Positions 26,131-59,802 of a stretch of 64,000 bases of DNA are shown in pieces. Position numbers and translations under genes: made by a program. Source of the stretch: the human T2T-CHM13v2.0 reference genome, Homo sapiens; assembly GCF_009914755.1 (NCBI RefSeq), contig NC_060931.1; one strand, 5' to 3'. The notes under the pieces were generated by a model. It worked only from the letters and a program-made list of their open reading frames with translations, ran no database searches and had not been told where the DNA came from. Each line of letters begins with the position of its first letter. The stretch's first letter is position 1.

Positions 26131-26497
26131 GTGACATAGAGACAGGAGGCAAATAAATTCTAGGCAGAAAAGGGCGGGTCTCGGACAAAACCCCACTCTC
26201 GAGCCTGAAACTGTGGCCCAAAGTGAAAACTTCCATCCCTGTTTTCCTGTGCCAATATTGCCTTTTCCAAAACACCCATGGCCCCACCCCACCCCATCCC
26301 ATCCTATTTCTATAAAAACCTCAGACTCAGCTGGCAGAGAGGGGAGAAGCAGCTGGATGTCAGAGAGAAGGGGCTTGACTTCAAAGGCACAACTTGATGA
26401 CATAACTTCAGAGAAGAATCTGACTGGAGCTGGCCGGACTTCAGGGGAAGATTGCCTTCCTGTCGTGTACCGTTTTCAGCTTCCCTTCCCTCTGAGA
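26131..26497 (+). mobile_element. ERV1 LTR (LTR27/LTR28-like), truncated before its poly(A) signal
   Basis: TGA start, aaattctaggcagaaaagggcgggtc, TATA-like ctataaaaacc, gacttcaggggaagatt; homology stops abruptly at cccttccctctgaga. Confidence 0.65.
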
Positions 26498-26509
26498 ATA
26501 AGGGTATAA

Positions 26510-27550
26510 GGGACTCCCATCTCACCCTTATTCCTCACAGACGTGGAAAAAAAAATATGTCCTCTGGATCCTTCCAGGGCAAGTAACCAGGCATCACATG
26601 AGAAATCTACTCTTCTAATCTCACTAAGCCTTTCAATACCTTCCTCTACAGTATACCAAGACAGTTCTGGCATTTAATGTCATTTAGTGTTGGCCACCTT
26701 TTAGTCCATGTTTTAGCCAATCAAGCAAACAAATTAATTGAGTTATTTCTGACCTCGAAAGCTACAACATTAAATCCAGAATCTCTGCTTCGTGGGCTCA
26801 TATCAATAAGTTTGGCCTGATTCAACTTTGTGTTCTTTCCACCACTATTCTACACCCTTGATTTCCATTCCCACACCTATTCCCTAGATTTCTGCTTGGG
26901 TAAATTGCAAAAGCCATGCAGTTATTTTGGAGTGTAGCAAATCTTTTCATGAGTCTTTTTAGGACTTACTGGGACTGAGTCCAGTTGTAGGTCTAGAAGC
27001 AAAGCAGCATGGTATGGATGGGTCCTGAGGAGAATCGCACTGTCTTGCATGGAAAATCCTCCAGCAAAGGCCATTATAGGCTCATCAGGCACAGAAGGAT
27101 TAACCTTTACAGGAGTGGAGTGGTAGCTTCTACTGGCAAAGAAGACTTGGGTGAATTTAAAGGATAGTTGTCCTCTCCTTCATCTGGATCTACACACATG
27201 TCACAATGTCAATTTTCAGGATTTCATCACTTTACAATCAATGCAACCACTTTAAGAGCAGATACCTTGAGAGGCTGGGGATTCTATTTCCATTGTAATT
27301 CTGCCACTCACAGGATGAGACTGTGGGTTTGTTTTTCCAAGATCTCAGCTGTGTGACTGCAGGAGATAAAAATTTCTTTCAAAACATACATAGAAACTTT
27401 CAGGTCATCTGTGCAGTTCTTGAGCTAAGAATTTGAATTTCTAAGCCCATCCTTTTCTTTCTCAACTTTGTGCATCAGAAATAAGAATAACTGGCTAATC
27501 ATGTCACACTCATGAGCTTGACCTAAACAGAGTGAGATGTTAAATGCATG
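26510..27550 (-). mobile_element. ERVL internal sequence (gag, 5' half)
   Basis: Minus-strand ORF MPELSWYTVEEGIERLSEI resembles ERVL Gag; DNA reads aaggtggccaacactaaatga...tggtatactgtagaggaaggtat. Confidence 0.8.
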
Positions 27551-27599
27551 GTCTCAACAGAAAATTTCTCATTATACCAAGAACAGCATGACCTTAAAC

Positions 27600-29013
27600 A
27601 GAATGAAAAATGACAGTTACAGATGCCACCACCAAAATTACAAAGATGCTGGAAATATGTCTCAAGAATTTTAAAGCAGATATCATAAAATCTTTAGTAA
27701 GAAATTATGAATACATTTTAAATCAATGAGAAAATAGAAATTATCTTCTAACACATTGAATACTTTGACCAAAAAAGGAGATCTAAAAATATAGAAATTT
27801 TAGTCAAAATAAAATGACTGAAAAAAATCTTCAGTGGATGAAGTCAAGAGCAGAGTGGAGAGGACAGAAGAAAAAATCAGTAGACCAGAAGAAAGAGCAA
27901 TTAAAATGACCAATCTGAACAATAGAGATCTGTGAGACATACAGAGACCTAGAAATTCATGGCATTGGAATTTTAGAACATCCACAAAGACATACCATAT
28001 CCTGGGTTATACAGCAAACCTCAATGAATTTTTAAGAATGAAAATAATAGACATTATGATCTCTGATCCCAATTAATTCAAATTAGAAATCAATAACAGA
28101 AAGATAAAAGAAAAATCTCTAAACATTTGAAAAGTAAACAAATTTCGAAATAATCCGTGGGTGAAAGAGAAAATCTCAAGGAAAATAAAAATGTACATTG
28201 CACTAAAAAAGAATGAAAATACAACATTTCCAAATTATAACACAGCTAAAGCAGTTTGAGAGGAAAATTTCCAGCACTAAATACGTACATTAAAATAGAG
28301 AACAAATGTTTAATCAGTAACTTAAGATCTCACCCAAAAATTGTAGAAAGGAAAAAATAAAAGATGGATGGAAATAATAAAGATAAATCAACAGATTTGA
28401 ATACAGAAAACAATAAAGGAAAGTCAATGAAACAGAGAGCTTTTGCTAAAAAGATCAATACATTTGGCAAATCTCTAGATAGGTCAACAAAGTTAAAGAA
28501 AGAGAGAAGACACAAATTACAGATTTATAAATTCAGAATGAAAGAAACGGTATCACTATTGGCTCTGCAGACTTAAAAAGGATAGGGAATACTACAAAGA
28601 ACTCTACATATATAACTTTTACAACTTCGTTTAATTCCTCAAAAAACTACAAGCTATCACAACTTGTTCAATATGAAATAGAAAATTTGAGTAACCATGT
28701 GAATATTAAAGAAATAAATTTCTTGGTAAAAAATTCCCTAATATCAGTTATTGTAATTGTAGTACATTTGTAAACACTTAAGAAAATGACAATTCTACAA
28801 TGCTTTAGAAAATAGAAGAAAACACATAGAAATTCATATTATGAAACTGGTATTAGGCAGATGCCAAAATCAGACAATGACAGTCCAAAGTATAAAATTA
28901 TGGACTAATATAATTCATAAATATAGATGGAAAAAGTCTTAATAAAATATTAGTAGAATTCAGCATCATATGAAGATTTTTTGATACAAAATAACAAAGT
29001 AAGATTTCTTCCA
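27600..29013 (+). mobile_element. Old L1M fragment (ORF1 piece joined to ORF2 piece)
   Basis: ORF1-like agtggatgaagtcaagagcagagtggagaggacagaagaaa, then ORF2 endonuclease-to-RT text ending at aaagtaagatttcttcca. Confidence 0.75.
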
Positions 29014-29014
29014 A

Positions 29015-30815
29015 GGGCGGGAGTCTCGGTTTGTAGTGGCTTCGCTGAGGCAGTGGTGGCCGCACTGTACCGTTAGAAACTCAGTTTCCCGGAGGTTGTA
29101 AGGCCCTTTGAGGTGAAATGGCTCTGGGCGTGAAAGGAGCAGGCGTTGGCAATGGAAGGACCACCGCGACCTCAGGCTGACCGTAGGGAGGGATCTTGAG
29201 GGCCCTCCGAGTCCCCTGGGCTTGCGCTTTTTTTCTTTGTAGCCACCGTGCCTACCGCGAGGATGAGCTCGGCCTCGGTCACCGCTTTCGAGAAGGAGCA
29301 TCTCTGGATGTATCTGCAGGCGCTCGGCTTCGAGCCAGGCCCAGCAACCATTGCCTGCGGAAAGATCGTGTCGCACACGCACCTCGGAGTTTCTGGACCA
29401 GTCACTCGCCAAAGAAGTTTTCAAATTTTGTTGGCCCCCATTTGACCAAAAAAGTGATACTGAATTCCGAAAACATTGCTGTGAATGGATAAAAAGGATT
29501 TCTGGTGAATGTGGAAGTAGCTTTCCTCAAGTTGTTGGTTCACTATTTCTTTCTCCTGGTGGTCCTAAGTTTATTCATCTGATGTATCATTTTGCAAGAT
29601 TTGTTGCAATGGAATATATTAAATCCAATTCTAAAAATTATCAGTTAAGCAGATACGAAACTTGACATCTGAATGTATAGGATTGGAAAACCAAATAAAG
29701 AAAATGGAACCCTATGATGACCACAGTAACATAGAAGAAAAAATTCAAAAGGTTCGGTCTTTGTGGGCTTCAGTGAATGAAACGCTCATGTTTTTGGAAA
29801 AAGAGAGAGAAGTTGTTAGTTCGGTCCTTAGTCTTGTTAACCAATATGCTTTAGATGGAACTAATGTTGCTATTAATATTCCAAGGCTCTTACTTGACAA
29901 AATTGAGAAACAAATGTTTCAGTTGCACAAAGGAAATGTTTATGAGGCTGGAAAACTGAACCTCTTAACAGTTATTCAGTTATTAAATGAAGTCTTGAAG
30001 GTGATGAAATATGAACGTTGTCAGGCTGATCAAGCAAGATTGACGGTAGACCTTCACTACCTTGAAAAAGAGACCAAATTTCAGAAGGAAAGATTGTCAG
30101 ATCTGAAACATATGAGGTATAGAATAAAAGATGATCTCACAACTATAAGACATTCTGTTGTTGAAAAGCAAGGAGAATGGCATAAAAAGTGGAAAGAATT
30201 TCTTGGTTTGTCTCCTTTCAGTCTAATTAAAGGTTGGACTCCATCTGTAGATCTTTTACCACCAATGTCTCCCCTTTCGTTTGATCCTGCCTCAGAAGAA
30301 GTGTATGCAAAGAGTATTCTTTGTCAGTATCCTGCTTCATTTCCAGATACACATAAGCAACATAACCAAGAAAATGGTTGCAGAGGAGACAGTGATACCT
30401 TGGGAGCTCTACATGATCTAGCCAACAGCCCTGCCTCTTTCTTGTCGCAGTCAGTTTCATCATCAGATAGAAACAGTGTTTCACTACTTGAAAAGGACAC
30501 AAAGATGGGAACTCCCAAAGAAAAAAATGAAGCAATTTCTAAGAAAATACCAGAATTTGAAGTGGAAAATTCTCCATTATCAGATGTTGCAAAGAATACA
30601 GAGAGTAGTGCATTTGGAGGGTCTTTACCAGCTAAAAAAAGTGATCCATTTCAAAAAGAGCAAGATCATCTGGTAGAAGAGGTTGCCAGAGCAGTTTTAT
30701 CTGATTCACCACAGCTCTCTGAAGGAAAAGAAATAAAATTAGAGGAACTAATTGACTCTCTGGGTTCTAACCCCTTCTTAACAAGGAATCAGATTCCCCG
30801 TACTCCAGAAAACTT
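29015..30815 (+). pseudogene. HAUS6P1: Processed pseudogene of HAUS6 (augmin subunit 6), 3'-truncated; probably HAUS6P1
   Basis: Intronless. About 250 nt of 5' UTR, ATG at 29263 (MSSASVTAFEKEHLWMYLQALGFEPG), then LDQSL..KFCWPPFDQKSDTEFRKHCCEW and MEPYDDHSN...NPFLTRNQIPRTPEN in different frames; premature TGA at 29443-29445. The parent gene is certain; the P1 label is from memory. Confidence 0.93.
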
Positions 30816-31620
30816 CAGGATCTTCGTGGTTGCTTTGCCCTGTAGGTCAGAAATTGCAATGGGAACTGCTATTCACTGAACTGGAATCCATAAATATAAT
30901 AAGGGTAACTGAATCCTGGAGTGGCAGGGGCCAGAGGTGACATTTAATTACCAAAGATAAGATGGGTGATTACCATAACAGAGTTTAGAATCAAAGCAGC
31001 AATCAGAAACATCTGACTTGTAGAACCCTATGGTGTCAGCTAGCTGATCATGCTGTCCCTAAAGTTAAATAGATAGGAAGCCTACTGAATTCATACTCAA
31101 TGTGTTTAAGCAAAAAAGTTACAGGTCATGGGAACATAATTCTAAGTTGAATTTTCAAATAGAGAGTTTGGCCCCTCATTAAATGCTCATATTTGAGCCA
31201 GTTTACAGGCTGAGAACCCCTTGAATGAAAGGGAGGTTGGGTCATCTTGAAAATGAATTTTGCTATACTGCTAAAAATGTATAGTGTCCATCTTATTTTC
31301 TGCAGCCTTCTCTAAAGGGTCCTATGGTCTTTTACCGGAATAACTGTGAATTAGAAGAAACGAAATAATCAGACTTTTTAGGATCTACTGATTACTGGCC
31401 CTGCCTAACACTAATTCCCAAAGACACAAAACAACCCTGTGGCCTTCTAGTGAAAGTAGGGCTCATGGAAGCAAGCGATCCATGGAGATGTAGGTCAGAT
31501 CCATTTCACGTGGTTCCAGGCCCATCCTGTGGTTACTTCCCCAGGTCCAGAATGCATAACTGAAGTACATACACTCAGCAGCTGGCAGAATCTCCCTGCT
31601 GGTTCCCTGACATATGATTG
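30813..31620 (+). mobile_element. ERVL internal sequence (gag 3' half into pro)
   Basis: gtggttgct...tgtaggtcaga...gggaactgc...gtggcaggggcca...caaagcagcaatcagaa...atagataggaagcctact match ERVL-int. Confidence 0.8.
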
Positions 31621-31796
31621 CCTCTATTTAGAAAAACAGGAAACCAAAAGCAATACCTTATTCCTGAAGTACCTATGCTCTTGTTTGATGTCATAACCCA
31701 GAAATTGTTGCCAAATCTAATGCCATGAGGTTTCCCCCTCATGTTTTTCTCTAAGAGTTTATAGTTTTCAATTTTTATTGACACATTCAATTTTTT

Positions 31797-32438
31797 AAAA
31801 CTTTTATTTGGAGTTCAAGTGCACATGTGCAGGGTGTGCAGGTTTGTTACATAGGAAAACATGTGTGATGGGAATTTGTTATATAGATTGTTTCATCACC
31901 CAACTATTACACCTAGCAACCATTAGTTATTTTTTCTGATCCTCAGTCTCTTCCCAGCCTCCGCCCTCTGACTTAGCTCAAACTTATAAGTGAGAACATG
32001 TGGTATTTGGTTTTCTGTTCTGGCATTAGTTTGCTAAGGATAATGGCCTCCAGCTTCATCCATGACTGCAAAGGACATGATCTCATTGTTTTTTATGGTT
32101 GCATAGTATTCCATGGTGTATATGTACCACATTTTCTTTACCCAGTCTATCATTGATGGGCATTTAGGTTGATTCCATGTCTTTGCTACAACATCATCAG
32201 AGAAATCCAAATCAAAACCACAATGAGATATCATCTCACACGAGTCAGAATGGCTGTTAAAAAATAAAATAAAAATAAAAAAACAGATCCTGGAAAGGTT
32301 GTGGAGAAATAGGAATGCTTATACACATTTGGGAGTGTAAATTAGTTCAATCATTGTGGAAGACAGTGTGGAGATTTCTTAAAGACCTAAAGAGAGAAAT
32401 ACCATTCTACTAGCAGTCCTATTACTGAGTATACACAC
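31797..32438 (-). mobile_element. L1PA (about PA10-13) 3' end with inverted 5' segment, nested in an older minus-strand L1
   Basis: Antisense 3' UTR/ORF2 end at 31797-32188, then sense atcatcagagaaatccaaatcaaaaccacaatgagata... at 32189-32438. Confidence 0.85.
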
Positions 32439-35400
32439 GAAGGCATTTTATGGTTTTCATTCTTAAGTCTTTGATCCATTTTGAGTATGCCCTATTTTTA
32501 ATTTCAATGGCTTGTAAAATTAATTTGAAATTTTTGAATGACAAAAGCCTATAAAATGTCCTTTAATTGATTATTCATCTTAAAATCTTGATAAAATATG
32601 ATGACATTTGCGATGAACATAATGCCAAAAAATATTAAAATTTTAATTCTGCAAAAATATTTTTAAATTAGTTTAAAAAGAAGCAGTTCACAAAAAAGAT
32701 AAACATCCAATAAATCCATGAACAAATTGAATTAAATGAGACACCATTTCAGCTTACTTATTTACAGAAAAAATTATTCCCTGCTCTTCCCTTGAAATAA
32801 GTCTGTCTTCCGACATAAGGCTAAGCTCCAAGCTAGTTATCTGGGTGCACTTATGTATTCATAAATAAACCACCAATTTTTAAAAAGTGTAAGCAAGCCT
32901 GCGAGGCAAAATCCAAAGTCCATATAACTCTTGGGTGCAGCATGAGCTTTTAGTTTGGAAACCCAGAAAAGAGGGTTGTGCACAGAAGACGTACTTCACG
33001 TTTGCTTGATGAACAGCAAAGTGCTTTACAACAGGAATTTGGAATGAAATTTGTCCAGTTGCTAAGCTAGTGAAGTCATAAAAATAAAGATAAACATATT
33101 TTGTTTTTACTCACAGAAATTCTGCCAGCCTCAACTGATATATTCCAGCCAAAGCAAAGTGGTCTCACTTTTCCTTCCTCCTCTAACACTTTGTGGCCCA
33201 CAACCACAATATCACAGAGAAGATTAAATAAACAAAATGGGAATAAAGTCACAGGAATTCAGTGAGTGCCAAATATGTGCAGTATCAGCCAGAATGATTG
33301 CTGGTAGGGATAAAACAGCACAATAAACTCCCAAGCCACGGAGCGTGTTTGGTAGTGCTGCCAAAAACCACAGTGCCGCCTTATGTGTGCACTTACAAAA
33401 TCTAAATACAGCCTCCCCATGGCACAGCAAGAGCAGAAGTGAGAGGGACAGATATGCTCCCATAAGTGCTGTCACTGGAGACTGGAGCACACCAAGAGCA
33501 TCTTAGTTTAATTTTGAGTAACCACTGGTGAGGATTTGGCAGAATATAAGAAAGAAATTAAAGACCCTTTAAAATAAAATTGATCCATTTCTAACATATA
33601 AATTATTTGATTAAGTACATACAGAGAGTTGGAGAGCAGGGCCCAGATACATGGTGATATCACCCCAGCTTAGAATGGCATGAGTGAAGAAAACATGACA
33701 CAGAAATAGCAGCTAAGTAATAATACCTTGAAAAAAAAGTAAGCCAAGGATTTCTTAACCATTAAGTATTGGAGGTCATTATTACAACCTCACTATATGT
33801 TACTTGTGTAATCATGATTGACTCTAGCAAACTAGATGGAATTCTTTTGTTAAGTACGTATTCAGCAATCCAAATAATCTTTTTCAGAATCTTCATCATA
33901 TCCAGCATGAAGCTGTGCAAACAGCTCAGGTAATTCCAGAGATAACCGCAACTGCCACAATTCTTCTCATCCCAATTCTTTCCTCCCTCACTTCTCTTAT
34001 CTAGGATTTCCTGGATGCATTGCTTATCACATTTCCTGCCTAACAAACAAAGAAAGAGAACAAAACAGGGACCTCAGTCCCATGTTTCAGAATAAAATCT
34101 CTCACTACAGCGGGGTGGCGGAGGCGGGGTGGGGTTTCAACATCTTTGAAGAAAGAACTTGTAACATTCTAACCTCTGATTTTTTAGACCTGTTTAATTC
34201 CTAGACTAACATATTTAATTCACTTTTTCATGGACCTTCATGGCCACACTTTTATGTTTTCCTTACTAGGAACGTCTTTAACACTGAAAACTAATTCTGA
34301 AATATTCCTTTCTCTTAGCATTATCTCTCCTCTTTTCCACTGCCTTACTCTTAGTCTTTCTATTTTGTAAATACAGATGTTTCCTTTTGTTAACCAAGTA
34401 CAATACCTCAACTGTGAATTTATTTACACTCATAGAAGCTTTAAGCCAATGGCCCAAGGATGCAGCCACTTTCTTGCTAACATTCAAAACTTCCACAACT
34501 CATGGTTGGATACATGTTACCATTTGCCTTTTCAGTTCTACATCTGGAATTCTGAGGGCTGAGGGAAATAGCCACATGGCTTAAGGGTAAGGCATTTTCA
34601 GATTCATGGCTAGGGTCTCAATTCGGTCTCATTCAATCCTGGCCAGCAAAATTGTTATGTAAGCTTATGTAGAAACTCTCTCTATACCCTATAGCAGTTG
34701 TTCCATCTCTCCCCATCCTCTGCAAACCAAATTCATTCCCACACCTCTTCACTCAGCAAATCATTGAAAACAGAAAATAACAAAGAAGTCTCACCATACA
34801 ATCAAATCCAATTAATTATAAATCTAGAAGAATTAATATGTGTATAATAGCATAAGGATAGACAATGAATTGATTAAGTGTAATGCAAAATCCAAAACCT
34901 AGGGCCAAATACATACAAACATAAAGATAAAGCAAGTATATATACAAATGTAAGTTTAAAACAGAAGTGGCATTTCACAGCCGTGGAGACACAGAAAGGT
35001 GATAAGGTGCGTGCTGTGAGAATGCCTGACCAGCCATGAGTTTCCATGCCACACTCAGGCCTACACCGACATAAACTTCCCTTGTCCTGGGGTCATTACA
35101 AATACTCAATTACTTGCATTTCATGGAAAACTGCTGCCTATTCCATGGCTCCAGGTTATTGAATATTACAATTCTTCCACTTCAGGTCCCACATGATCCT
35201 ATTGCAGAGTCTACCTTACTTTTTATCTTTCAAGTCATTTTCAGCTTTCTGAGATTGACGTTTCTTTCCCTTCTTTGAACTCCACTGGGACTTGTATACT
35301 ATTTCACGATTTCTTTTATTACTTTGTTTCTAAACATGCTCTGTCCGTGTCTGAAATCCCTCTAGTTGTAAAGATTGTATTTAATTATGTTTATTTCTAG

Positions 35401-35454
35401 TGCCTTTCCCAATACATGATTGGGACTAAGTGATGTACTAATTTTGATTTGGAA

Positions 35455-35585
35455 ATCTTTCATTCCACAAACATTTATTGAGTGTCTACTATAAATGTAG
35501 GTGATGGTATGAGTTGTGAGAAACAGGCTGACGATAAACAAGACCTGGTCCTTGCCCTGGAATGATTCCATAGCCCAGTGGTTGA
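35455..35585 (-). mobile_element. L2 3' fragment
   Basis: caaacatttattgagtgtctactat...ggtccttgccctgga. Confidence 0.55.
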
Positions 35586-37675
35586 GGCAGTTTGACCTGC
35601 AGGAAAAATTTATTATAAAAAAAATTCTGGATGCACTTCGCTTGAAAAACAGAACCATTAGGGATGATTTAATAACACACTGTGATCATATTAAGGTTAG
35701 AAAAGGAGATGCATTAAACTGCTCTCAATCTTTCTGAAGACCCAAAAAGACTATTAAGCACTATATGAATGATAAGTTTGTATAAATAATTGTTGTTAAA
35801 AAGTAGGTTAACATAGGGTGCACGATTTTTATTTTTGGTGCTATTTCAAAATAAGACTGAATCAACTTGTACATATATTTTTTTCAGCAAGGGATTATGT
35901 CAAAATACTCTTTTTGTTTACATGTTATTTTATGCATATTTTGTAATTTTAATTTTATTAGTGCTTGACCATAAGTTCAAGGAGATATTTATTTGGCTTA
36001 ATCTTGATATTTATGATATCAACTTGAAAGTGAATGATAATGCATATTGCAAGGTTTTCTCGTATGAAATATTTGTGGAATTATAAAATAGATCTTACAC
36101 ATTTCTAAGTATTCAAATATTCCTGTTCAGTTATTATACTAAAGATATCTGGAGAAAGTCATTTCTCTTCCAGGGGATTATATGCACACTTGTGACTGAG
36201 ATGCAAAGTCACACTTCAACAAACTAGATGAATTCAGACGTTTAGAAGTGGTGACATTTGCATATAAATTTAAACTCTGCCCCTGAGCTATAAGGATAAA
36301 TTAATAATCCAATTTAAATATTTGAAAGATATGCCTTATAAGAAATACCGCATTAAAAGATAGAGTAAGAATATAGTAGGAAAGATGTTCTTCCTAATAA
36401 CATTTAATTTTATTATCACAAAAATAAAGTATGTGGAGTCCATGCAATTTGTAAAATCTATCTAAAATACACATCTCTAATAAGGAAACTGCTTTAAGGC
36501 AGAAATAATACTCTCATGGCAGTTAAGGTTAATTTGTGAATTTAGTGATAGAGAAGGAGAATTATCCTACCTTAAAGAGAAAAATCAAAAGATAAGTCAA
36601 ATTAAAACATAAACACCGCTAGCAACAATGTCGCTTTAGGTAAAAAACTTTAAAAATGTACATGCCTTGGTACAATCTAAGTTTGGTAGAAACCTCGATG
36701 GGTCAGTAAGTTAAAGGTGAGTGTTCAAATTTACTCATTATCTCAGACAAGGGAAGCACTAAAACTCCAAAGCTATCTTACCATCCTAATTAGAGTTTTC
36801 TCACAATGAATATGCTTGCATATATGAAAATAGTGTGTTGTTTTATTGGTTATATTCAAAGAAGTGTTGAGGAGAGTCCGGAAGACATACATTACATGCA
36901 GTACTTAACTCACATATAGACATGATGGCAAATCAGTCCTCATTATCAATAAATCTGCTCTCACTGAAATTGAGTTCACTCAGTTAATGAAACAAACGTT
37001 AAGGAACCTCAATTGTATAATTAAATTAAAATATAATTGTAATCATGTTAGTTTATTGTGATTTGACTTGCAATTTAACTGACAAATTATTGTCCAGTTC
37101 TTCACATTCATAACACCTAATTGAGAAGAGGAAAGCAGAGGACAGAAAGAGTTTACACAAAATGTTTACATGGAATATGGGAATATTTGAAATTCTCCTC
37201 TAGTTTTATACTCATAATTCCCTTACATGCTTTTCCTCGTGTTTAACTCTACATGTTTACTCAACATGGTGTAACAGTGCGTTTCATGTTTGTGATTTTG
37301 TGTTTATTGAGAGGAGACTTGCCTTTGTGGGGAGAGAGTTGATTATTTGTTTGGCTATAATGCCTGTTCTGTGTTTTTCTTTATATAGGCAAGCTAGCTG
37401 TGAGATTTTTTTTAAGGAGAGTTTATTGGTATAAATTTATCCTGGGCTAAAGAAAATCACTATTCAAAATTATTCCCCAATGGCTTCTATTCAAACCTTG
37501 GGTTAATAAGTTTCCTATGAATACAAGTAAATAAGTAGGACTCATTTTCTTGTTGCTGTGAATTACTTTACCAAAGTAATCACACTGACCGCACTGCCAG
37601 CACTTAGCGAACACACCACTGGAAGGTGCAGGCTCCGGTTAATTGAGCTGAGATGGCAGGACGAGTATGGAATCG

Positions 37676-38600
37676 ATGGTGTGTGGTAGCTAACTCACCT
37701 GGGCTCACAGAAACAACTGTTACATTTTCAGAAACATTATGAGCTGGTTTAAAACATGGCGATTTTTAAAGATTAAAGAAAAATAAATATATTACAAAAA
37801 CAAGTTAATACATAGTTAAACTTCCTTTTCCAGTTATTTTATGTTTTATACTATCCTCTTCACCCTGTGGTTAGATCCCTCCAAAGAACCTGTGTGGGAG
37901 AAACCATGCACAGTAAGGTGCCACTGTGTGTCATGTTGTCCAGCTTCACATTAGCCACAGTAGGAGGAGTCACACCCAGAAATCTGAAAACTCTCCACAT
38001 CAGGGCTTGATGTATTGTTACCTTAACTATACTTAGGAAGTGATGAAGAAATGAAATTCTGCCTATACATTTTTGAAGTTTTCTACCTAAAGATAATGCA
38101 GATTAAGCTTAAAAGTGTGGTATGTGTCTGCAGCCATTACATTATGAATAGCACAAAAATGCTGAAAATTATTTAGTACTAGAAAAGTAATATCATATAT
38201 AGTTCAATAAAGTTACTCTCAACAACAATTGATGAGCAAAGCTCCAACATGTGTATGTCTTTATTATGTTCATCTTTCTTATGCAAGTGAAAAAAATCAA
38301 CCAATATTTATGTTGGAACTATAGTCATGTGTTAATTTCAGCCGTAAGTTAGCTACAAACACAAGAAAAGCTTGGCAAAAATCAATTAAACATTCTGTGA
38401 GAATCAGATGGCTAAATTAAGTTATCAAAAATATTTTATTGTTATTTGTAAATTGAGTGTTGTTACATATCTTTTATATTAGTAATAATTATAATAAACA
38501 AGTATATCTATTTATATATATGCTATATATCTGTTACATATATGTATATGCTTTTTCCATTTGCATATGTTGATTGTTAAACATTTGCCAATATACTGTA
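37676..38600 (+). mobile_element. MER63 (C-like), hAT-Blackjack DNA transposon
   Basis: atcagggcttgat, taatgcagattaagcttaaaagtgtg, cattctgtgagaatca and ttgttaaacattt are colinear with the remembered MER63C consensus. Confidence 0.75.
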
Positions 38601-39680
38601 TGTAATGCAAAAACAGTCATACCTCAGCTTATGTCCATCTCCCTGGACATAAATTGTCCTTGGGCATAAGTCCAGACAAGTACATCCAATATTATTTGTT
38701 CAAACTTATATCTCTCTGGCCAATCCAAGATCTTTCTTAAATAGAGAATCAGAAAATTACTGATAAAATAACATATATCATAAACTCCAATAAAAATCCT
38801 TATCTCAATGTATATAATGAGGCTTGCAAACAAGCTATCCAGAAGATATCTGCAATGCAATTTTGGTTAATTACATGGCATTGATTCATCTTTTTTCAAT
38901 CTTCCTGTTAAAATTAGCAAACTCCAAACAAAACAAACAAACAAGAAGAACCTATGCTGAAACAGCACGTATTGTTCAATAATGTACCAAATATCATGAA
39001 GAATTACCACTAATTCCAAAAGAATGGGCCATGAAAAGTGATAACTGGTAGCAAACTCACCCATAAATGTTTGAAAAAATAAAAAATGGCATTAGCTTCC
39101 ACCCCATGCCCACCCTCCAACCTTATATCAGACAATTAGGCCTGGTAATAAGATACAAATCATCGCATTTGTTCCCAACAGAGTTCCTTCTACAGAGAAC
39201 CTAATGATATATCTCATTTTCTACATCCACTCAGGAGATTGTAGCTTCTGGTAACAATAGTCTCAAAGGAACAAGGGAGCAGAAAGTACTATATTAAATA
39301 GTGGTGTGTAAGGTGCAATCAGGAATATGAGAAATGCGAGAGTCTTCCAGGCATAACTATTGGCAAAAACAGTAATGCAGTCTATTTAATGCCATCATAA
39401 ACAAACATAGCACAACATTCAGTGGACAAATTCGAATGAAATGTGAAAAACAGTGTTTAGCCAAAGGCATATAAAAGGAATACTTATCCCACCAATGGTG
39501 CTCACATTTAAAAGCCCAAGAATAAATGAATTACAAGTTTAACTAAGAGGGTTTAAAATTCTAAAATAAAATGAACTTTGAAAAGTCAGAAAAATAAGAA
39601 AATTAAAAGGAACTATTTTTAAATTAGGAAACTGAAATCTGGTGTAAATGAATGATCAAATCAAAGTTTAAAAAATTGCT

Positions 39681-39682
<2 letters not shown>

Positions 39683-39717
<35 letters not shown>

Positions 39718-39720
39718 ATA
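39683..39720. repeat. (TAAA)n microsatellite
   Basis: About 9 units read directly. Confidence 0.95.
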
Positions 39721-42228
39721 GGCAGAGCCAAAACACTAAATGAAAGGGAAGGAATAGAATCTTTGGAAATAAACCCATTTGTTGCTTGCAAAATTACAGC
39801 TTATTCTTTTTGTGCTTTTAGATTTTGATTTTCTGTAGTAAGTTCCCATAAAAACTAATAACTTCTAAATTTATCTCAAAATATTCGAAAAATTGAACAG
39901 ACAATAAAAAAGATAGTTGCAAAATTGTCTCTTAGAAAAGTACCAGCCAGATGGTCACATGAGCTAGAATAACATTAAAGTTTTTCATGATTAGATGATT
40001 TCCATTGAAATAAATTTTATTTTTTGAATTTTCTGGACACAGAAGATAGAAATTTTTCTCAATACATTTTACAAGACCAATAATATCCTGATGGTAACAG
40101 ATGAAAAAAATCACTATAAAACCATGAGGTCCTCAATTATGATATATGCACACCCAGTAGTGAAGTATTGAGTATATCTAAAGAAATAATTCCCCATGAT
40201 AATAAAGTTTATTAAAATACTGCAAGCTAATTACACTATGGATAAATTTTCAATAGAAAAGACTTCTTAGTATTTTACTATGCATAGAAAAAGAACTGAA
40301 ATTTAACAACCTCTCATTTTAAAGAAATAAATCTTTAAGCAAAATAATAATATAATTTCACTTCCTTAGTATGGTACACTGTCAATAGCAAGCATCATAA
40401 AAATACTGAAACATTGCAGTCTTACCAATAAAAGGCCTTAATAATGCCAGGTTGTTTGTTTTAAATATTTTCTTGGATTTTAGCCATTGAAATAGAGTAT
40501 GAATAAAGCAATTAAACATACACATAACAATCAAGTAAGTACCATTATAATTATTTGTCACTGGAGAGATTTTGTAACCAAAACCCCAAGCAAATCTGCT
40601 GAAACACACCAGGACTAAAAGGAGAATTAATTATGTTGGGAAATCAAACAAATGAAAAGTCAAAAGTATATCCTTTGTAGCATATGTGGCAAAACAATTT
40701 ACACTATTAAGAATCTCATTCAGAGTAGTAGGTGAATATTTCAGAAAACTAGGAACAACTGTTTGCTATGCAGGACCTCTAAGCAATATCACAAAATGGC
40801 GCTGGGAAATATAAATAAACATTGAGCAGGAAAAGAGACTGCCTTGTTCTTTTGTGAAAAAAAAAAAAATGCATGTTAAGAATGGGTACATTATCCCCAA
40901 ATTAATCTTTAAATAGAATACATTTTAAGTAAAAACTCTAGAAGTATTTCATGTGATTAAGTGATTTAACAATTTATCTAGTAACATAGACTCATAACAC
41001 AAATATCACAAGCAGAGCAAAAGAAAGGCCCCTGTCTTAACAAGTATTGAAATTTCTGGTATCTAAATTCACCTTTACCTGAATTTCCCAAATTTTTCTG
41101 CCCACCTAAGCAATATCTTGCTTGACTGCTAAATAGTTCTGTTTATTTCAGTGTTTTTTTTAGGAGATTTCCAGAGAACACTTACGTGTCCATGATGCCA
41201 TGTGTGACCTTTGGTCCAACCTGTGAGTTCATGCTTCTCCAGCATCCTCTCAAATAATCTCACCCTTGCATCTCAGCTAATCACCCTAGTGCACATATTC
41301 TTTCATTATCCAAAGGGAATTAATAAGCAGCTGGCATTGAGTCCATATTGTATAATACACTTAATAGAAGAATTGAGAGCTTTGGAAGGGATTTATAACA
41401 TGAAAAGGTAAACTTTAAATAGCATATTTTCTAGCACCACCAAAATGTTGCTGCTCCTTCAGTAAATGGAAACCCTATCAACATTTAATTTGCTTAGACT
41501 CAGCCTGGCCTGCTGGTTTGCTGCTGGGACCTTTTCCTCAGGTTAGATTCTGCATTATCAGCTCCTTTCTCCCTTATGTTTGGCCATAAACTCCTTACCT
41601 AAGGGCTCACCAGAAGTAACTTTAAGCTCCCAAATAATGTTTCCAGAGATGATTGTCCCTCTTTAATTTAAATTAATAATAATAATAAATTGTTTAAATT
41701 ACTTAGGTCTGTTGCTTCCTCAAATGAATCATTCAGCCTTAAAATGCAGTATTTCCATAATCACTAATTCTATACATCCTTTAAAATGTAGCAATTACTA
41801 CAGCATGGTATGTCAAAAATGATTTAGGAAGTGAACATGTAAAAATATGAAACCCAGAATAAAATGCAGATGAAACTTTATGTATTTTAACATGATTGAG
41901 GGCTTTCTAAGCCTGACTTCAAGAATAAAATTTATAAATTAAAATATTGATACATTTGACAATTTAAAATAATACTTCTCTAAAAGAAATAAGCAAAATG
42001 AGAAGAAACAAAGAAAAATAAAAAAAGGAACAAAAGGAAGGAGTGAAGGAAGGTAAGAAGAAGGGAAAAAGGGAATGAATAAAATAATAAAGATATATAA
42101 GGAAAACAAAACAAAGAATAGCAATTGTTATTAAAATATTATTTAAAATGGGAAAAAATAAATAAAAAATGTATAAAAGACTAAGAACTAATATCTGTAT
42201 ATATAAAGAGCCTCGAAAACATAATTAA

Positions 42229-42357
42229 CTCATTTATGCCTGAGGTTGCAATTTTTTGAATTTTTGCAATCAGACCTTGGCAATGACCTTGAGCAGTAGG
42301 ATATAAATAATTCCTAATGCTCAGTGTTCCAATAATGGAACACTAGGCATAAATGGG
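42229..42357. mobile_element. MER85 piggyBac (PGBD3-derived) MITE, full length
   Basis: TTAA then ctcatttatgcct...aggcataaatggg then ttttaa; internal palindrome GTTCCAATAATGGAAC at 42326-42341. Confidence 0.93.
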
Positions 42358-44575
42358 TTTTAAAAAACAGTTTGCAATGAAGTGAAAAAGCAATTCTCAA
42401 AAGAAAAAATATATGTGGCCAATAAATATATAAACTAATTAATTCAGAAATGCATAAAACACAAACACATTTTACCCTTCTTAGCAGATTATGATAAAAA
42501 TAATGATAAATCCCAGTATGAGTCTATGTCTGGGGGAGCGTGCACACTCAAATATTCTAGAAGAAAATGTAAATTTTATATTTTTCACTGGGAAAATTTT
42601 AGAAAAAGACTTCGATATATGCATTATCTTTGATACAAATAGCCTGTGAGAATAATTGAAAATATGTTTTGTTTTACCACAAAAAATTTTCAGAATCATT
42701 GTTTAGAAGAGCCAAATACAGCATGATGTAGATGTCCTGCAATTATAAGTCAAACACTAGATACTCAATGTAGTTGTCTGCATTATGAATCATTGAAGTA
42801 TTTGATTGATTCAGATGTACTTCTAATATATTTTCAATAGAAAAATTGTTTACAAAATAATTGTGTCTTATCCTATTGGTACATGTAGCTATTTTCACTT
42901 TTTGATTGTAAATTCTCTACACTTAAAATTATTTTGAAAATTAAAAGTTAAATTATTTCAATTCAAGACTATTTACACATTTACATGTGCATATGTGCAG
43001 TATGTATAAATATTCATCTCTTATCAGCTTGTTACTACTATTTTTAATTTGATTAATATCAGTTGATATATGAAACTTCACATACAGTTTTATGTATACT
43101 ACACCTTATTTAAGGAGTGTCTCTCTTTAGGTTCAGGCAGCAGTGTGTATAGTACCCCAAGGATGGTGGTCATAGTTGATTATATAATCACAGTTGTCTA
43201 AGAAATCCTCACGTGACATACAATCCCTCAAGTCTTAACTATACAAGCCCAGAGTATCAAGCATGCCATTGTATTGCTGTAACTCATGTTTTCATGCTAG
43301 CTGTCATATTACCAACAATGTTCAGAACATCCTTAAATTTAAAACAGTAAAATTAACGCAGGTTTTCATAAGCAGACTCTGAGCGAAGGTAAGTTTTGGA
43401 GGTGGAGAAGTTAGAAAGTGGGCCAGAGAAAGGAAGACATCCCACAAAGGTGTGCTAATAAGGTGCGCTGGTGACAACTAGTATCAACGGTGGTACTGTC
43501 TCACCTCTGTGTCTTTTAGTAATGTCTACTGGCTGAGCCTATCCTAAATTCTTAGACTCTGGCCTTTCCTTGAGTTGGTAAATGCCCCTGTGGATAGCTG
43601 CAGATCCTCAGCTGCCGTATAAAAGATTTTCTCCTTCTTGGGTTGCTTCTGAAGTTCTCTGAAGCCTTTAAACATATGATTTTCATAATTCATCCAGCTT
43701 ATTTGAATGAGAGCATTGGCCTGCCATATATTATACCATGCTACCCATATGCAAAAGCTTAATCAATATTTTAATCTTACTTATGCTAATTGGGAACTTG
43801 TGTCTGTCTTCTGATTTTATAAGACACGCTGAAATTGTCTTCATTTATTTTTTGCGGTGTATTCCTTAAACTAGTCTAACCATATTTATTGAATTCATGA
43901 CCACAGGTTAAATTTGCCAATTTGTAAGTAGCTTATAATAAGGATAATAAATGGATTTGTACAGTATGCTTGCTTTTTTTCCTAGCAATTTTTTTAAGTT
44001 GTTAAATTTCACTCTCTAAAATAAAGCAATTCAAAACAGATTATCACACTTCTTCATAGCTATAAACCATTGATGGCGTATTGTATTGAATGTTAGTTGT
44101 TACTTGGTGGTTTTGTTGATCATGGAATATTCATCACTGTTCTCACTACTGCATGTCAAAGCATTTTGAATCAGCCCCCGGCAATAGCACTCCTTTGTTA
44201 TGGATCATTCTCCATGCGCCATCCTGTGAGGCCTCTTATCTGTCTTCCAATATATGGAACAGGAAACCCAATTGTTGCACACTCAGTTTATCATTTGAAC
44301 CATAACAACCTTACTACCCATACCTTTAGATTTTTCCATACTAAAACTGCTTCCTCTACACATGCTAACTCTTTTTCCTGCTCTTTTATGAACACACCCC
44401 AAAGTCTCTGTTTTGTCCTACAATATTTTTTTTCCAGATCAGGCTCTGTGCACTTCAGAAATCCCTCTTGCAAACTGTTCATTCTCTGTAAGTTAAAAAA
44501 GTTACCTCTTCAGTTTTGAAAAATGAAATTATTTTACTTCCATAGGGAAGTGTGACTGCTAGTAATTGTGAAAGG

Positions 44576-45022
44576 TGTGAGAAAATTAAATTTCTTGCAG
44601 CATTTAAGCTAACAAACTAGCCTGCCATACATAGTTTCGTGGACACAAGATTCCTGAATCAAAGTCAAAGACTGTGAGACTCACAGGAAGAGCAATGGTG
44701 GAATCGCAGGCATGATGCTCAGTGTTCATGCTGGTTCCTCACTCCCCAAGTGTAACACAGAGGCCCGGCCCGGACATGTGGTGGGCAGTATTTCTGGATA
44801 GGAATGCTGAGCTGGGAGATTTACCGCCTTTACAGTGAATAAAAACAAGCATCATCTTTGTTGCCTAATCCTTCAAGTTTGCTCCGTGGAAACACAACCC
44901 TGAGGCAGGGTCCAGATAAAAACCAGCCCCATCTTGCTTTCTGGGAATAATGAGCAAGAATGAGCAGAGACACTCAAGGTTCCTGGCAGATGGCATCTTC
45001 CATGAAGTGCTTCTAGTTCCAC
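44576..45022 (-). mobile_element. ERV solo LTR (LTR47-like, family uncertain)
   Basis: TG...CA bounded; aagctaacaaactagcctgcc...gacacaagattcctgaatca...actcacag resembles remembered LTR text. Confidence 0.4.
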
Positions 45023-48000: not shown

Positions 48001-48409
48001 AAAAGACAAAGAAGATTTTTGCTACTGTCTAGGCTACAGGTTAAATACAATAAAGTTTACCATGAGAAATTCAAACTCTGATCTTGTATGTTAAATTGGT
48101 CTGAAGTTAGAGTTTATATTGCTTATCTGGAGAAAAAATTTGTAAGCTAAGGAACTTATATAAAACTTAAAGCCAGGAAATGGGAAAGCAGAAGATACTC
48201 CCTAAGCCCAGCAGTACAGGATCCCTTAACCATTCACACAAAACCGCATCACTGAATTAGTTCTAACAGTAACTAATTACAGAACAACAACAACAAAATC
48301 AAAATTCGCTGTTTTATTGCTTTTGAGAAAAATTCAAAAACAATTAAAAAAGCGAATATATCAAGTGTTGGACATATTAGAATTAGAAAAATAACTAATA
48401 AAAACGTTA

Positions 48410-48877
<468 letters not shown>

Positions 48878-48924
48878 CTATAAAACACTAATAGTATCAA
48901 CTTTTGTAGAACTCAAGAATCTAA

Positions 48925-49159
<235 letters not shown>

Positions 49160-49824
49160 CTAATCTAAAATTTAACAGCAACCAGAGAATTTACCAATAG
49201 AGAAAAGGACAACTGATTTTTGGTGAGAGAGTACTGTGGCACTTTCATCCACCTGCCTACCATCTTTCATTTTCTAGGGCAGTGGCAGCAACCAGGGGGA
49301 GGGTTTTCTGCATTTCTGGTGCTGTTCGCTGGTGCCAGGGTAGTGAAAAGGGCTTTGTTCTTAAAATGCTGTGATTATTTGACATGTCTGCTGTTTCCCT
49401 GGGGGACTAGCACAGAGGCTGATCTTTGTTTTGCTGCTCCTCCCCTCTACCTAGGGCAGTGATACTGTCTGTTGAAAGGTATAAATACATATTTTCTGCA
49501 CCCACCTGGGATAAGAGATGGCAGATGGGGCAAGTGGTATGAAGGCTCAAGCCTGTTGAGCAGGAGAAGGCAAGGAAGCAGGTCTCTTATGGAATTAAGG
49601 GCTCTGAAGAAAGAGTGTGATGCATATGCCCAGGACTGGATGCATGCTCAGAAAGGATCTGAGAAGACGTAGACCTGCATGTCTGGCAGATATGCGGGCT
49701 TTGTTCAAGCAAAGCGTGAAGGAAAAGGGAGCGCCGTAGGCAGCCTGCTTAGCATTGAGCAGTATCCCAGCTCAGCTGTATTAGAACCTAAGCTGTAATA
49801 ACATAATGACAAGCAGAGTAGTGT

Positions 49825-49848
49825 TCTCTCTCTCTCTCTCTCTCTCTC
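49825..49848. repeat. (CT)n microsatellite
   Basis: About 12 units read directly. Confidence 0.9.
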
Positions 49849-52706: not shown

Positions 52707-52806
52707 AAAGTAAATTTTGCCTTCCATCTTCCACTGAGTATCTAATAGATTAATCCAAAGTAAATGTTGCCTTCCATCTTCTACTGAATATGTAACAGAT
52801 TAATCC
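52707..52806. repeat. 50-bp tandem duplication, 2 copies
   Basis: aaagtaaat.ttgccttccatcttc.actga.tat.taa.agattaatcc occurs twice with 5 mismatches. Confidence 0.9.
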
Positions 52807-53064
52807 AGGAGAATATTCTCACACTAACACTGAAAGGAAATCTTTGCTTACACAATGTCCTCATTCCATAAACAAATGTGGAGATCCCATTTCTCACCTG
52901 CCTCTAATGACATTATTTCCTTTTGACACTTTTGACTCTATGATATTATTTGTACTTCACCATTATTCATTCTTTGAAAACAGGTAATACATTAAAATAT
53001 GCATTTATTTTAAAATGTTATACCAAATTTATCAATATATTATGTTTTTGGATTTAGCTTCTTG

Positions 53065-53595
53065 TTGCTGAGAACTGCACGCCCAGTACAAATGGGTCCA
53101 TCTAACTGTCCCACACTAAAAGACTAGAACAAACTCTAGGATGGCTGCTGTCAGCAACAGGCCATGCCCTCAGATGATTCCAGCTCCCTTAACATGCCAG
53201 ATCTGTTCCAGCCAAAACCTGACTATAAGCCCCTGACCTTTATCTTAGAACATTTACATTAGTAAACATGCAATGTACATTCTGAAGTACTAGAATGTAC
53301 TTGTAACCTTTCTCTGCTCTTTGAGATGTAAATCTTCTGCAATCCAAAATGTTTTTTTAAGGACCTTGCAAGCATTCCTTATAAATGTCATCATCAAGAA
53401 GGATAGAACCTCTGTCCTGGAGTCTTTGTGGGAGGGTTGGAAACTGACTTTGATAAATGCCAATTAGCAGACATTGACGACCTAATCACACTGACAAACT
53501 TTTCCCCCCTTAATGTCTTTCAGTACTTTTAATTTAGTGTATCCCAGTGTTTATAAAATTCTCATCTCTTGTTTCAGTCAAGTTGAAGTTAGACA
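53065..53595 (+). mobile_element. ERV1 LTR (MER31/MER67-like)
   Basis: tttgagatgtaaatcttc, catcaagaaggatag, tgtgggaggg and gccaattagcagaca motifs. Confidence 0.55.
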
Positions 53596-53879
53596 TTGTA
53601 AGGAATAGGCTTCAACTTTTTGAAAGTGGGAATTTGAACTCTCTGAATGTGGAATCTGACATCATTTCTTTTGAAGATAATTATTTATAATTCTGGTTTC
53701 TCTCCAAGTCTTCTGAGCATCTACAAACGTATTTGCATAACAACAGCCCTGGAAGCTAGAGATAATGTCTCCCTTAAGATAGAGTCCTGACAACACTCCG
53801 GGGTAATGAAATCTCCCTCCTTTTTCAACTTACATTCCAGGGTAGTTCACTTAATTGCTCTAAAATATTGTAAGATATG

Positions 53880-58728: not shown

Positions 58729-59802
<1,074 letters not shown>

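What the first reader, a model, noticed from the sequence alone, without database searches (positions are those of the whole stretch)
26494..30815. Inferred ~4.3 kb inversion/complex rearrangement that splits an ERVL gag, an ERV1 LTR and the HAUS6 retrocopy
Seen: the minus-strand ERVL piece ends near 26510 reading ...gtgaggaataagggtgagatgggagtccc, and the plus-strand piece starts at 30813 with cttcaggatcttcgtggttgctttgccctgtaggtcag. In the ERVL gag consensus as I recall it (gtgaggggagccccagcatccttgaagagctctgtggt..ctctgtagg) these are adjacent, yet here they are 4.3 kb apart in opposite orientation. The LTR27/28-like element stops abruptly at the left junction and HAUS6 homology stops abruptly at the right one. 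Inference: the block [ERVL 5' half + L1 + HAUS6 5' half] was inverted relative to the right flank. The DNA holding the rest of the LTR, L1 and retrocopy was deleted or moved, which implies at least three breaks. Because the retrocopy is young, the event should be recent in primate evolution and datable.
Basis: partly seen in the sequence, partly recalled or inferred. Interest (0 to 1): 0.8.

Follow-up and report, generated by a model that had tools for sequence, protein, structure and literature searches.

The report
Retrocopy split by 677-kb complex inversion
The 4.3-kb block is one fragment of a balanced three-break rearrangement on human chromosome 7 that flipped about 673 kb of DNA, and the pieces thought to be deleted lie intact at the far end.

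Summary
Nine genomic copies of the ERV family place the minus-strand piece (26510-~27474) and the plus-strand piece (from ~30813) next to each other, with about 5 nt missing. The LTR is truncated at 26497 and HAUS6 homology stops at 30815.

The "missing" DNA lies 673 kb downstream on the same chromosome, at C7:54.023 Mb:
- the LTR 3' remainder, in minus orientation, with the same 4-bp target-site duplication
- directly beside it, the HAUS6 retrocopy 3' half in plus orientation, followed by a 14-nt poly(A), an 11-13-bp duplication that matches window 29001-29013, and the rest of the L1

The ancestral order was A,-C,B,D and the present order is A,B,C,D, where B is 4.3 kb and C is 673 kb. There are three breaks, and about 25 bp in total was lost. 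Two of the three junctions carry 10-11-bp inverted templated inserts and the third shows microhomology. This points to end joining rather than homologous recombination.

The event is younger than the retrocopy, which differs from its parent by about 1.7%. Which lineage carries it could not be tested. This is an ordinary kind of event with an unusually clean record.

The parts
26132..26135 (.). 4-bp target-site duplication (GTAG) on the left of the solo LTR. Its partner lies beyond the LTR 3' end, 673 kb away, read on the minus strand.
26136..26497 (+). 5' part of a solo ERV LTR. It has a natural 5' end and is truncated at 26497. It corresponds to positions 1-362 of a 946-nt full-length copy (L030). 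The partner lies OUTSIDE THE WINDOW: the LTR 3' remainder (positions 382-946 of L030) is at C7:54,023,271-54,023,852 on the minus strand (window place 703271-703852). It has a natural 3' end followed by GTAG.
26498..26509 (.). Junction J1: a 12-nt filler between the LTR and the ERV piece. The stretch 26496-26505 is a perfect 10-nt inverted copy of 26524-26533, which lies inside the adjoining ERV piece. The filler also holds a 7-nt direct repeat.
26510..27474 (-). This is the start of fragment B.
27550..29012 (+). Old L1 fragment (ORF1 end and ORF2 5' part), 65-69% identical to genomic copies. It was the target of the retrocopy insertion. Its continuation lies OUTSIDE THE WINDOW, from C7:54,028,523 on the plus strand (window place 708523).
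29001..29013 (+). 5' copy of the 11-13-bp target-site duplication of the HAUS6 retrocopy. The 3' copy lies OUTSIDE THE WINDOW at C7:54,028,523-54,028,533, directly after the 14-nt poly(A).
29013..30815 (+). HAUS6 retrocopy 5' half (HAUS6P1). It is intronless and differs from the parent exons at 29 of 1847 aligned positions. This is the end of fragment B. The 3' half lies OUTSIDE THE WINDOW at C7:54,023,862-54,028,522 on the plus strand (window place 703862-708522). It is 97.1-98.5% identical to the parent, carries one later Alu insertion and ends in a 14-nt poly(A).
30813..30816 (.). Junction J2: HAUS6 5' half joined to the ERV 3'-side piece, with no filler. Up to 3 nt (30813-30815) can be read as either partner. 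The third junction, J3, lies OUTSIDE THE WINDOW at C7:54,023,853-54,023,861. It lies within an 11-nt perfect inverted repeat with a 5-nt loop (C7:54,023,849-859 and 54,023,865-875), whose right arm is the start of the HAUS6 3' half.
30816..31611 (+). 3'-side piece of the same ERV internal region (the part that was mapped). In family copies pol/RT follows about 1 kb further on.
30816..64000 (+). First 33 kb of fragment C, the 673,037-bp segment that is inverted relative to the ancestral order. It runs on beyond the window to C7:54,023,852 (window place 703852).

Best explanation
The region records a balanced rearrangement of chromosome 7p with three breakpoints.

Ancestral state. The order was A | -C | B | D. 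It held an intact solo LTR of about 950 nt at A|-C and an intact ERV internal region on the minus strand at -C|B. A complete HAUS6 processed pseudogene of about 6.1 kb sat inside an old L1 at B|D.

The event. Three double-strand breaks occurred, in the LTR, in the ERV and in the retrocopy. They freed a 673-kb fragment (C) and a 4.3-kb fragment (B). The ends were rejoined as A | B | C | D. B kept its orientation but changed sides, and C was flipped. Only about 18-19 nt of LTR and about 5 nt of ERV were lost. None of the retrocopy was lost.

How the ends were joined. The three broken elements are unrelated, so the joining was non-homologous. J2 is a direct join with up to 3 nt of microhomology. 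J1 and J3 each carry a short insert that is an inverted copy of the first bases of the adjoining fragment. This is the footprint expected of fold-back (snap-back) synthesis in polymerase-theta-type alternative end joining.

Shown: the positions, orientations and complementarity of all six broken ends, and the inverted inserts.
Inferred: that all three breaks belong to one event (my odds are about 0.7, against 0.25 for two successive inversions), and which enzymes did the joining.

The stated confidence is for the balanced three-breakpoint structure spanning 677 kb, not for the single-event sub-claim.

The event has no evident function. It is a structural mutation in a gene-poor stretch, and it is younger than the retrocopy.
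For: 1. Retrocopy halves.
- The next HAUS6 exon (L023:7828-8861) has only three places in the genome: the parent gene, an older chr20 retrocopy, and C7:54,023,871-54,024,902 on the + strand at 99% identity.
- The 5' half likewise has only the window, the parent and chr20.
- The far half runs on through the last exon and 3'UTR at 97.1-98.5% identity. It ends in 14 A's followed by an 11-13-nt string identical to window 29001-29013.
- Two natural L1 copies (L057, L058) are colinear across window 29012 and far position 10523, within about 9 nt.

2. LTR halves.
- Four of four full-length family copies map their first part (1-362 in L030) to window 26136-26497 on the + strand. They map their remainder (382-946 in L030) to far 5852-5279 on the minus strand.
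- GTAG flanks both natural ends. At least 3 of the 10 other copies examined show 4-bp duplications of the same kind.

3. ERV halves. These are adjacent and colinear in 9 of 9 copies.

4. The far LTR piece abuts the far HAUS6 half directly. The three junctions therefore pair the six ends as LTR-ERV, ERV-HAUS6 and HAUS6-LTR. This is a 3-cycle that no single inversion can produce.

5. Junction footprints.
- A 10-nt perfect inverted repeat straddles J1 and an 11-nt one straddles J3.
- Hairpins of this kind (stem at least 10 nt, loop at most 30 nt) have only 5 centres in the 64-kb window and 4 in the 16-kb far stretch.

6. The three breakpoints share no homology. They lie in an LTR, an ERV internal region and a cellular cDNA.
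Against: - No outgroup genome and no second human haplotype could be examined. The ancestral order rests wholly on rejoining broken elements within one assembly.
- The single-event claim is a parsimony argument. Two inversions that reuse one breakpoint give the same end state, and breakpoint reuse in primate inversions is reported (PMC7605249, title and passages seen).
- At about 70% identity to family copies, the ERV and LTR ends are fixed only to a few nt. The microhomology at J2 and the count of lost bases are therefore approximate.
- The J1 insert does not fit one clean round of fold-back priming. I had to suppose two rounds.
- At J3 the palindrome can also be read as 14 nt with one missing base and no loop. 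That reading would fit an opened hairpin end rather than snap-back synthesis.
- A replicative template-switch origin is not excluded.
Confidence: 0.85

Rival explanations
1. Two successive simple inversions produced the present order. One spanned about 677 kb with breaks in the LTR and the retrocopy. The other spanned 4.3 kb, with one break in the ERV and the other again at the junction made by the first inversion. They could have come in either order.
For: The end state is identical. A 3-cycle of junctions can be resolved by two reversals (my reasoning). Nested inversions and breakpoint reuse are described for primate genomes (PMC7605249, passages seen). The short palindromes at J1 and J3 could have made a first junction fragile.
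Against: The second break would have to fall within a few nt of the first junction. The retrocopy halves lose no base, and 2 nt are present in both. The LTR halves lose only about 19 nt. No trace of an earlier filler remains at the HAUS6 5' end at J2.
Confidence: 0.2
2. A replication-based template-switching event (FoSTeS/MMBIR type) copied A, then B, then C backwards, then D, using microhomology at each switch.
For: There is microhomology at J2 and there are short templated inserts at J1 and J3. Junctions of this kind are usual for such events, from general knowledge that I recall.
Against: The product is copy-neutral. B, the HAUS6 halves and the LTR halves each occur once. Template switching commonly leaves duplications or triplications. 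It would also have to copy 673 kb in one run.
Confidence: 0.1
3. One reading: a local inversion of the 4.3-kb block, with the rest of the LTR, the L1 and the retrocopy deleted.
For: Within the window alone the block is inverted relative to the ERV piece on its right, and the partners are absent. No high-identity HAUS6 3' exon is found in the 64 kb.
Against: All the supposedly deleted parts exist 673 kb downstream, in complementary coordinates, with matching target-site duplications. The block has the same orientation as the far retrocopy half.
Confidence: 0.01
4. The structure arose during the retrotransposition itself (L1 twin priming or a retrotransposition-associated rearrangement), or it is an assembly error.
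For: L1-driven insertion can invert part of the inserted copy and can cause target-site rearrangements (general knowledge that I recall). The bioRxiv preprint 10.1101/2024.12.14.628481 on L1-caused rearrangements was seen in a search listing only.
Against: The retrocopy has a full 5' end, a poly(A) and an 11-13-nt target-site duplication shared by its two halves. So it was inserted normally into an intact L1 and broken later. Both halves are on the same strand, whereas twin priming inverts one of them. As for assembly error, three separate junctions each pair complementary halves to within 0-19 nt, which a misjoin would not do.
Confidence: 0.02

Closest known systems
Evolutionary inversions of hominid chromosomes formed without segmental duplications (non-homologous end-joining type)
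   Same: It is copy-neutral. The breakpoints lie in unrelated interspersed repeats. Only a few to tens of bp are lost, and the junctions show microhomology or short fillers.
   Different: There are three breakpoints rather than two. A 4.3-kb fragment changed sides without flipping. Each broken end is identifiable through a split element with its own target-site duplication, so the ancestral state can be read from one genome.
Balanced germline complex chromosomal rearrangements (chromoplexy- or chromothripsis-like, few breaks)
   Same: Several simultaneous breaks with fragments reshuffled in order and orientation, almost no loss, and non-homologous junctions.
   Different: It is the minimal case, with two fragments on one chromosome arm. 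It is apparently part of the normal human reference sequence rather than a clinical finding. That the breaks were simultaneous is inferred, not shown.
Polymerase-theta-mediated end joining with templated (snap-back) insertions
   Same: Short inserts at two junctions are inverted copies of sequence within 30 nt of the joined end, and they are bounded by 3-4 nt of microhomology.
   Different: Only the footprint is seen. The enzyme cannot be assigned from sequence. The J3 palindrome could equally come from an opened hairpin end.
L1 twin-priming inversions
   Same: A retrotransposed sequence is involved, and a junction falls inside it.
   Different: The retrocopy halves are in the same orientation and 673 kb apart. 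The flanking ERV and LTR are rearranged too. The target-site duplication and poly(A) show an ordinary earlier insertion.

Membership tests
L1-mediated processed pseudogene (HAUS6 retrocopy) | Intronless copy of the spliced mRNA | tested here: met
   Parent exons on C9 abut one another in the window and in the far half. The exon junction next to the break was read directly.
L1-mediated processed pseudogene (HAUS6 retrocopy) | 3' poly(A) tail and flanking target-site duplication | tested here: met
   14 A's, then 11-13 nt identical to window 29001-29013. These are found only when the two halves, 673 kb apart, are taken together.
Simple two-break inversion | Un-inverting one segment restores both junctions | tested here: not met
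   Un-inverting 26510-30815 restores the ERV only. The LTR and the retrocopy need a third junction, at C7:54,023,85x.
NAHR-mediated inversion | Inverted homologous repeats at the breakpoints | tested here: not met
   The breakpoints lie in an LTR, an ERV internal region and a HAUS6 cDNA. No large inverted repeat pair flanks the block within 20000-40000. The far flank was compared with the window only through the LTR, ERV and L1 copies.
L1 twin priming | The 5' part of the inserted copy is inverted relative to its 3' part, within one pair of target-site duplications | tested here: not met
   Both halves are on the + strand.
Alternative (theta-type) end joining footprint | Microhomology and templated inserts copied from nearby flanking sequence | tested here: met
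   There are 10-nt and 11-nt perfect inverted copies at J1 and J3. Background is 5 such hairpin centres per 64 kb and 4 per 16 kb. The enzyme itself cannot be tested with these tools.
   Family copies share the same 5' and 3' ends. GTAG is found on both sides here, and 4-bp duplications in at least 3 of 10 other copies. The subfamily name was not tested because no repeat library was available.
ERVL internal region, gag | Class III ERV with a gag reading frame at the break | tested here: inconclusive
   Family copies carry RVT_1 about 1 kb downstream of the break-equivalent position (E 3e-21 and 1e-12). Of two open stretches upstream, one gave no Pfam hit and the other only a below-cutoff DivIVA match, and neither matched a gag family. 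The class L assignment was not tested.

The most novel reading that the evidence does not exclude
The rearrangement is specific to the human lineage (or to human plus Pan). It would then be a fixed, 677-kb, copy-neutral, three-break 'inverted transposition' at 7p12.1 with no segmental duplications. It would have been made in one germline event by alternative end joining, and catalogued, if at all, only as a plain inversion. That would make it one of the few large lineage-specific rearrangements whose ancestral state, break order and repair footprint can be read base by base. It would also be a natural example of a minimal chromoplexy-like event reaching fixation.
Probability: 0.3. Interest if true: 0.65.

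Novelty: new member of a known kind. Interest (0 to 1): 0.45.

Why it matters
- It corrects the annotation. HAUS6P1 is not a 3'-truncated pseudogene. It is the 5' half of a complete retrocopy whose 3' half lies 673 kb away.
- It gives a base-pair-resolved example of a large rearrangement formed without repeats. Three independent split markers (a retrocopy and a solo LTR, each with its own target-site duplication, plus an ERV internal region) let the ancestral order be reconstructed from a single genome.
- The retrocopy gives an upper age limit.
- The junction inserts bear on how germline inversions without duplications arise.
- The approach could be run genome-wide to find cryptic old rearrangements: look for the missing half of every 3'-truncated retrocopy.
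- No gene is disrupted, so a phenotypic effect is unlikely.

Tried and rejected
- The 3' half of HAUS6 is not in the window. BLAST of 18 kb of the parent gene's 3' region against the 64 kb gave only Alu matches and the known last exon.
- An RNA-level origin of the break. The break lies 2-4 nt from an exon-exon junction, so I considered a splicing intermediate, a chimeric transcript spliced into an ERV, or an intronic poly(A) site. I rejected these for three reasons. The right-hand ERV piece has no high-identity source elsewhere (best non-self match 71%). No intron sequence follows the exon. The far half begins with the last 4 nt of the same exon.
- Continuity of the DNA around the LTR insertion site could not be used as a fourth marker. 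The left flank 25700-26135 is single-copy (1 of 1 match is itself).
- I looked for the more 5' part of the ERV beyond the L1 in the far 16 kb and found only Alu matches.
I used natural open stretches of other copies instead.
- Literature. 'HAUS6P1' is in 2 papers, both association studies by their titles (listing only). 'HAUS6P2/HAUS6P3' is in 1 unrelated paper. 'inversion' + '7p12.1' + 'great ape' gave 0 papers. A search for split processed pseudogenes at inversion breakpoints gave nothing on this locus.
- Inversion tables. Those of PMC7605249 and PMC12058530 are in supplements too large to read here. PMC7415573 is not held. The main text of PMC12058530 has no passage on this region. A catalogued inversion at these coordinates therefore cannot be excluded.
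Full report
**What is in the window.**

I searched the window's own genome (the human T2T assembly, handle G000) with 30813-31500. This returned many copies of one ERV family at about 70% identity. I fetched nine of them with flanks (L002-L010).

- In all nine, the reverse complement of 26510-~27474 and the plus strand from about 30830 match colinearly on one strand.
- The left piece matches at 68-73% identity and the right piece at 67-71%.
- In the three copies I worked through (L002, L006, L007) the arithmetic gap is about 7-10 nt.
- A MAFFT alignment of the nine copies with both window pieces places the two ends about 5 family positions apart.

So one ERV internal region was cut here, and its halves now face each other across 4.3 kb. 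In family copies the reverse-transcriptase domain (Pfam RVT_1, E 3e-21 and 1e-12) begins about 1 kb downstream of the cut-equivalent position. The right piece is therefore the pol-ward side. "gag" is plausible but was not shown.

**The other two broken elements.**

The LTR:
- The family found with 25960-26560 has a natural 5' end at 26136.
- 10 of 11 copies examined continue with mutual homology for more than 150 nt beyond the point that matches 26497. The eleventh, L031, breaks off after about 55 nt.
- The window copy is therefore truncated there.

HAUS6P1:
- 29013-30815 matches the exons of the parent gene on C9 at 96-100% identity, with 29 mismatches in 1847 aligned positions.
- It is intronless and starts at the parent's first exon.
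- Homology ends 2 nt before the end of an exon, and the next exon does not follow.

The L1:
- Between the ERV piece and the retrocopy lies an old L1 fragment (about 27550-29012, plus strand, 65-69% identical to genomic copies).

**Where the missing parts are.**

The parent gene's 3' region has no high-identity match in the window. I located the next exon using the older chr20 retrocopy and searched the whole genome with it. It has exactly three homes: the parent gene, chr20, and C7:54,023,871-54,024,902 on the plus strand at 99% identity. The last of these is 673 kb downstream of the window's retrocopy half.

I fetched 16 kb there, which showed:
- The HAUS6 copy continues through the last exon and 3'UTR at 97.1-98.5% identity. 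There are 77 mismatches in 4343 aligned positions, and one later Alu insertion.
- It ends in 14 A's, followed by an 11-13-nt string identical to window 29001-29013, followed by L1 sequence.
- Two natural L1 copies are colinear from window 29012 into this far L1, within about 9 nt.
- Directly to the left of the far HAUS6 half lies the rest of the LTR in minus orientation.
- Four of four full-length LTR copies map their first part (1-362 in the numbering of copy L030) to window 26136-26497 on the plus strand. They map their remainder (382-946) to the far locus on the minus strand.
- The LTR's natural 3' end there is followed by GTAG when read on the minus strand. These are the same four bases that precede the LTR's 5' end at window 26132-26135.
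- At least 3 of 10 other copies show 4-bp duplications of this kind.

**Reconstruction.**

Call the left flank A (up to 26497). B is 26510-30815 (4,306 bp). C runs from 30816 to C7:54,023,852 (673,037 bp). D is the far right flank (from C7:54,023,862).

The present junctions pair the six broken ends as follows:
- J1: LTR 5' part with ERV 5' side
- J2: HAUS6 5' half with ERV 3' side
- J3: LTR 3' part with HAUS6 3' half

Only the order A,-C,B,D heals all three elements at once. It gives an intact LTR at A|-C, an intact minus-strand ERV at -C|B, and an intact retrocopy at B|D.

B has the same orientation as D, since both retrocopy halves are on the plus strand. So the 673-kb segment is the one that flipped, and the 4.3-kb block moved from its right to its left.

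The loss is about 19 nt of LTR, about 5 nt of ERV and none of the retrocopy. Two nt of the retrocopy are present on both sides. Every piece is single-copy, so the event is balanced.

**One event or two.**

Three junctions forming a 3-cycle cannot come from one inversion. They need either one three-break event or two inversions that share a breakpoint. In either two-step route, the second break must hit the first junction within a few nt. Almost nothing is missing and no earlier filler is left, so I prefer a single event (about 0.7 against 0.25). This is a parsimony argument, not a demonstration. Breakpoint reuse in primate inversions is reported (PMC7605249, passages seen). Every possible route involves retrocopy ends at each step, so the whole rearrangement is younger than the retrocopy.

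**How the ends were joined.**

The three breakpoints lie in unrelated sequences, so homologous recombination between repeats is excluded.

- **J2** is a direct join in which up to 3 nt can belong to either side.
- **J1** has a 12-nt filler. Window 26496-26505 is a perfect inverted copy of 26524-26533, which lies inside the adjoining ERV piece. A 7-nt motif is repeated directly.
- **J3** lies within an 11-nt perfect inverted repeat with a 5-nt loop, whose right arm is the first bases of the far HAUS6 half.

Perfect hairpins with a stem of at least 10 nt and a loop of at most 30 nt have only 5 centres in the 64-kb window and 4 in the 16-kb far stretch. Two of three junctions carrying one is therefore far beyond chance.

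Short inverted inserts of this kind, bounded by microhomology, are the footprint described for fold-back synthesis in polymerase-theta-type end joining. I recall this from general knowledge and read no paper on it here.

Two caveats apply:
- The J1 insert needs two rounds of copying to explain.
- The J3 palindrome can also be read as 14 nt with one base missing and no loop, which would fit an opened hairpin end.

A replicative template-switch origin is less likely because nothing is duplicated, but it is not excluded.

**Age.**

Retrocopy and parent differ at 106 of about 6190 aligned positions, or 1.7%. Against ape divergences as I recall them (human-chimpanzee about 1.2%, human-gorilla about 1.6-1.75%, human-orangutan above 3%), and allowing for constraint on the parent, the insertion falls roughly around or somewhat before the gorilla split. 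The rearrangement is later than that. Which lineages carry it could not be tested because no other primate or human assembly is available here.

**What is known.**

- Searches for HAUS6P1 (2 papers, both association studies by title), for HAUS6P2/P3 (1 unrelated paper), and for inversion + 7p12.1 + great ape (0 papers) found no description.
- The same is true of a search for split processed pseudogenes at inversion breakpoints.
- The inversion tables of the macaque Strand-seq paper and of the complete ape genomes paper are in supplements too large to open.
- The great-ape Strand-seq paper PMC7415573 is not held.
- A 673-kb inversion that differs between species would very likely already be listed there as a plain inversion. 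Its three-break structure and the link between the two retrocopy halves may not be.

**Verdict.**

It is wrong in scale, in which segment flipped, and in supposing a deletion. This is a member of a known kind of event, a non-homologous, balanced evolutionary rearrangement, with an unusually complete internal record.

Noticed in passing
window 30813-30817; parent L020 (C9:19,072,955 exon end): The break in the retrocopy lies only 2-4 nt before an exon-exon junction of the HAUS6 mRNA. I first took this for an RNA-level signal. The far half begins with the last 4 nt of the same exon, so it is a DNA break. By my rough estimate the closeness has a chance probability of a few percent, and I take it as coincidence.
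   Followed up: yes
G000:C20:33,065,604-33,069,268 (L013, L014, L045): A second, older HAUS6 retrocopy on chromosome 20, on the minus strand. It is 76-90% identical to the window copy or the parent and is interrupted by an Alu. It was useful as a ruler for the exon order.
   Followed up: partly
far locus L051:7414-7744 (C7:54,025,414-54,025,744): An Alu (poly-T first, so minus strand) was inserted into the 3'UTR of the far retrocopy half after retroposition. About 15 nt of the parent sequence are duplicated on both sides: parent positions 4226-4240 occur in both flanking alignments.
   Followed up: partly
L003:1491-1901 (a genomic copy of the ERV family, just downstream of the break-equivalent position): A 137-aa open stretch matches Pfam DUF5535 above its curated cut-off (29.2 bits against 25, E 1e-6). 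This suggests that this family of unknown function may be derived from this class of ERV.
   Followed up: no
window 20779-20863: A compact palindromic element: 33-nt arms, 88% complementary, 19 nt apart. It looks like a small DNA-transposon-derived inverted-repeat element. It is unrelated to the finding.
   Followed up: no
window 29391-29417: 27 nt of the retrocopy lie between the matches to parent exon 1 and the next matched exon, and have no match in the parent pieces I fetched. The chr20 retrocopy aligns across them, so they are probably a small exon lying in parent DNA that I did not fetch.
   Followed up: partly
far locus, about C7:54,033,525-54,033,990 (L052): A second L1 fragment covers the same L1 coordinates as the L1 in the window block, so it is a separate element and not part of the split L1.
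   Followed up: no
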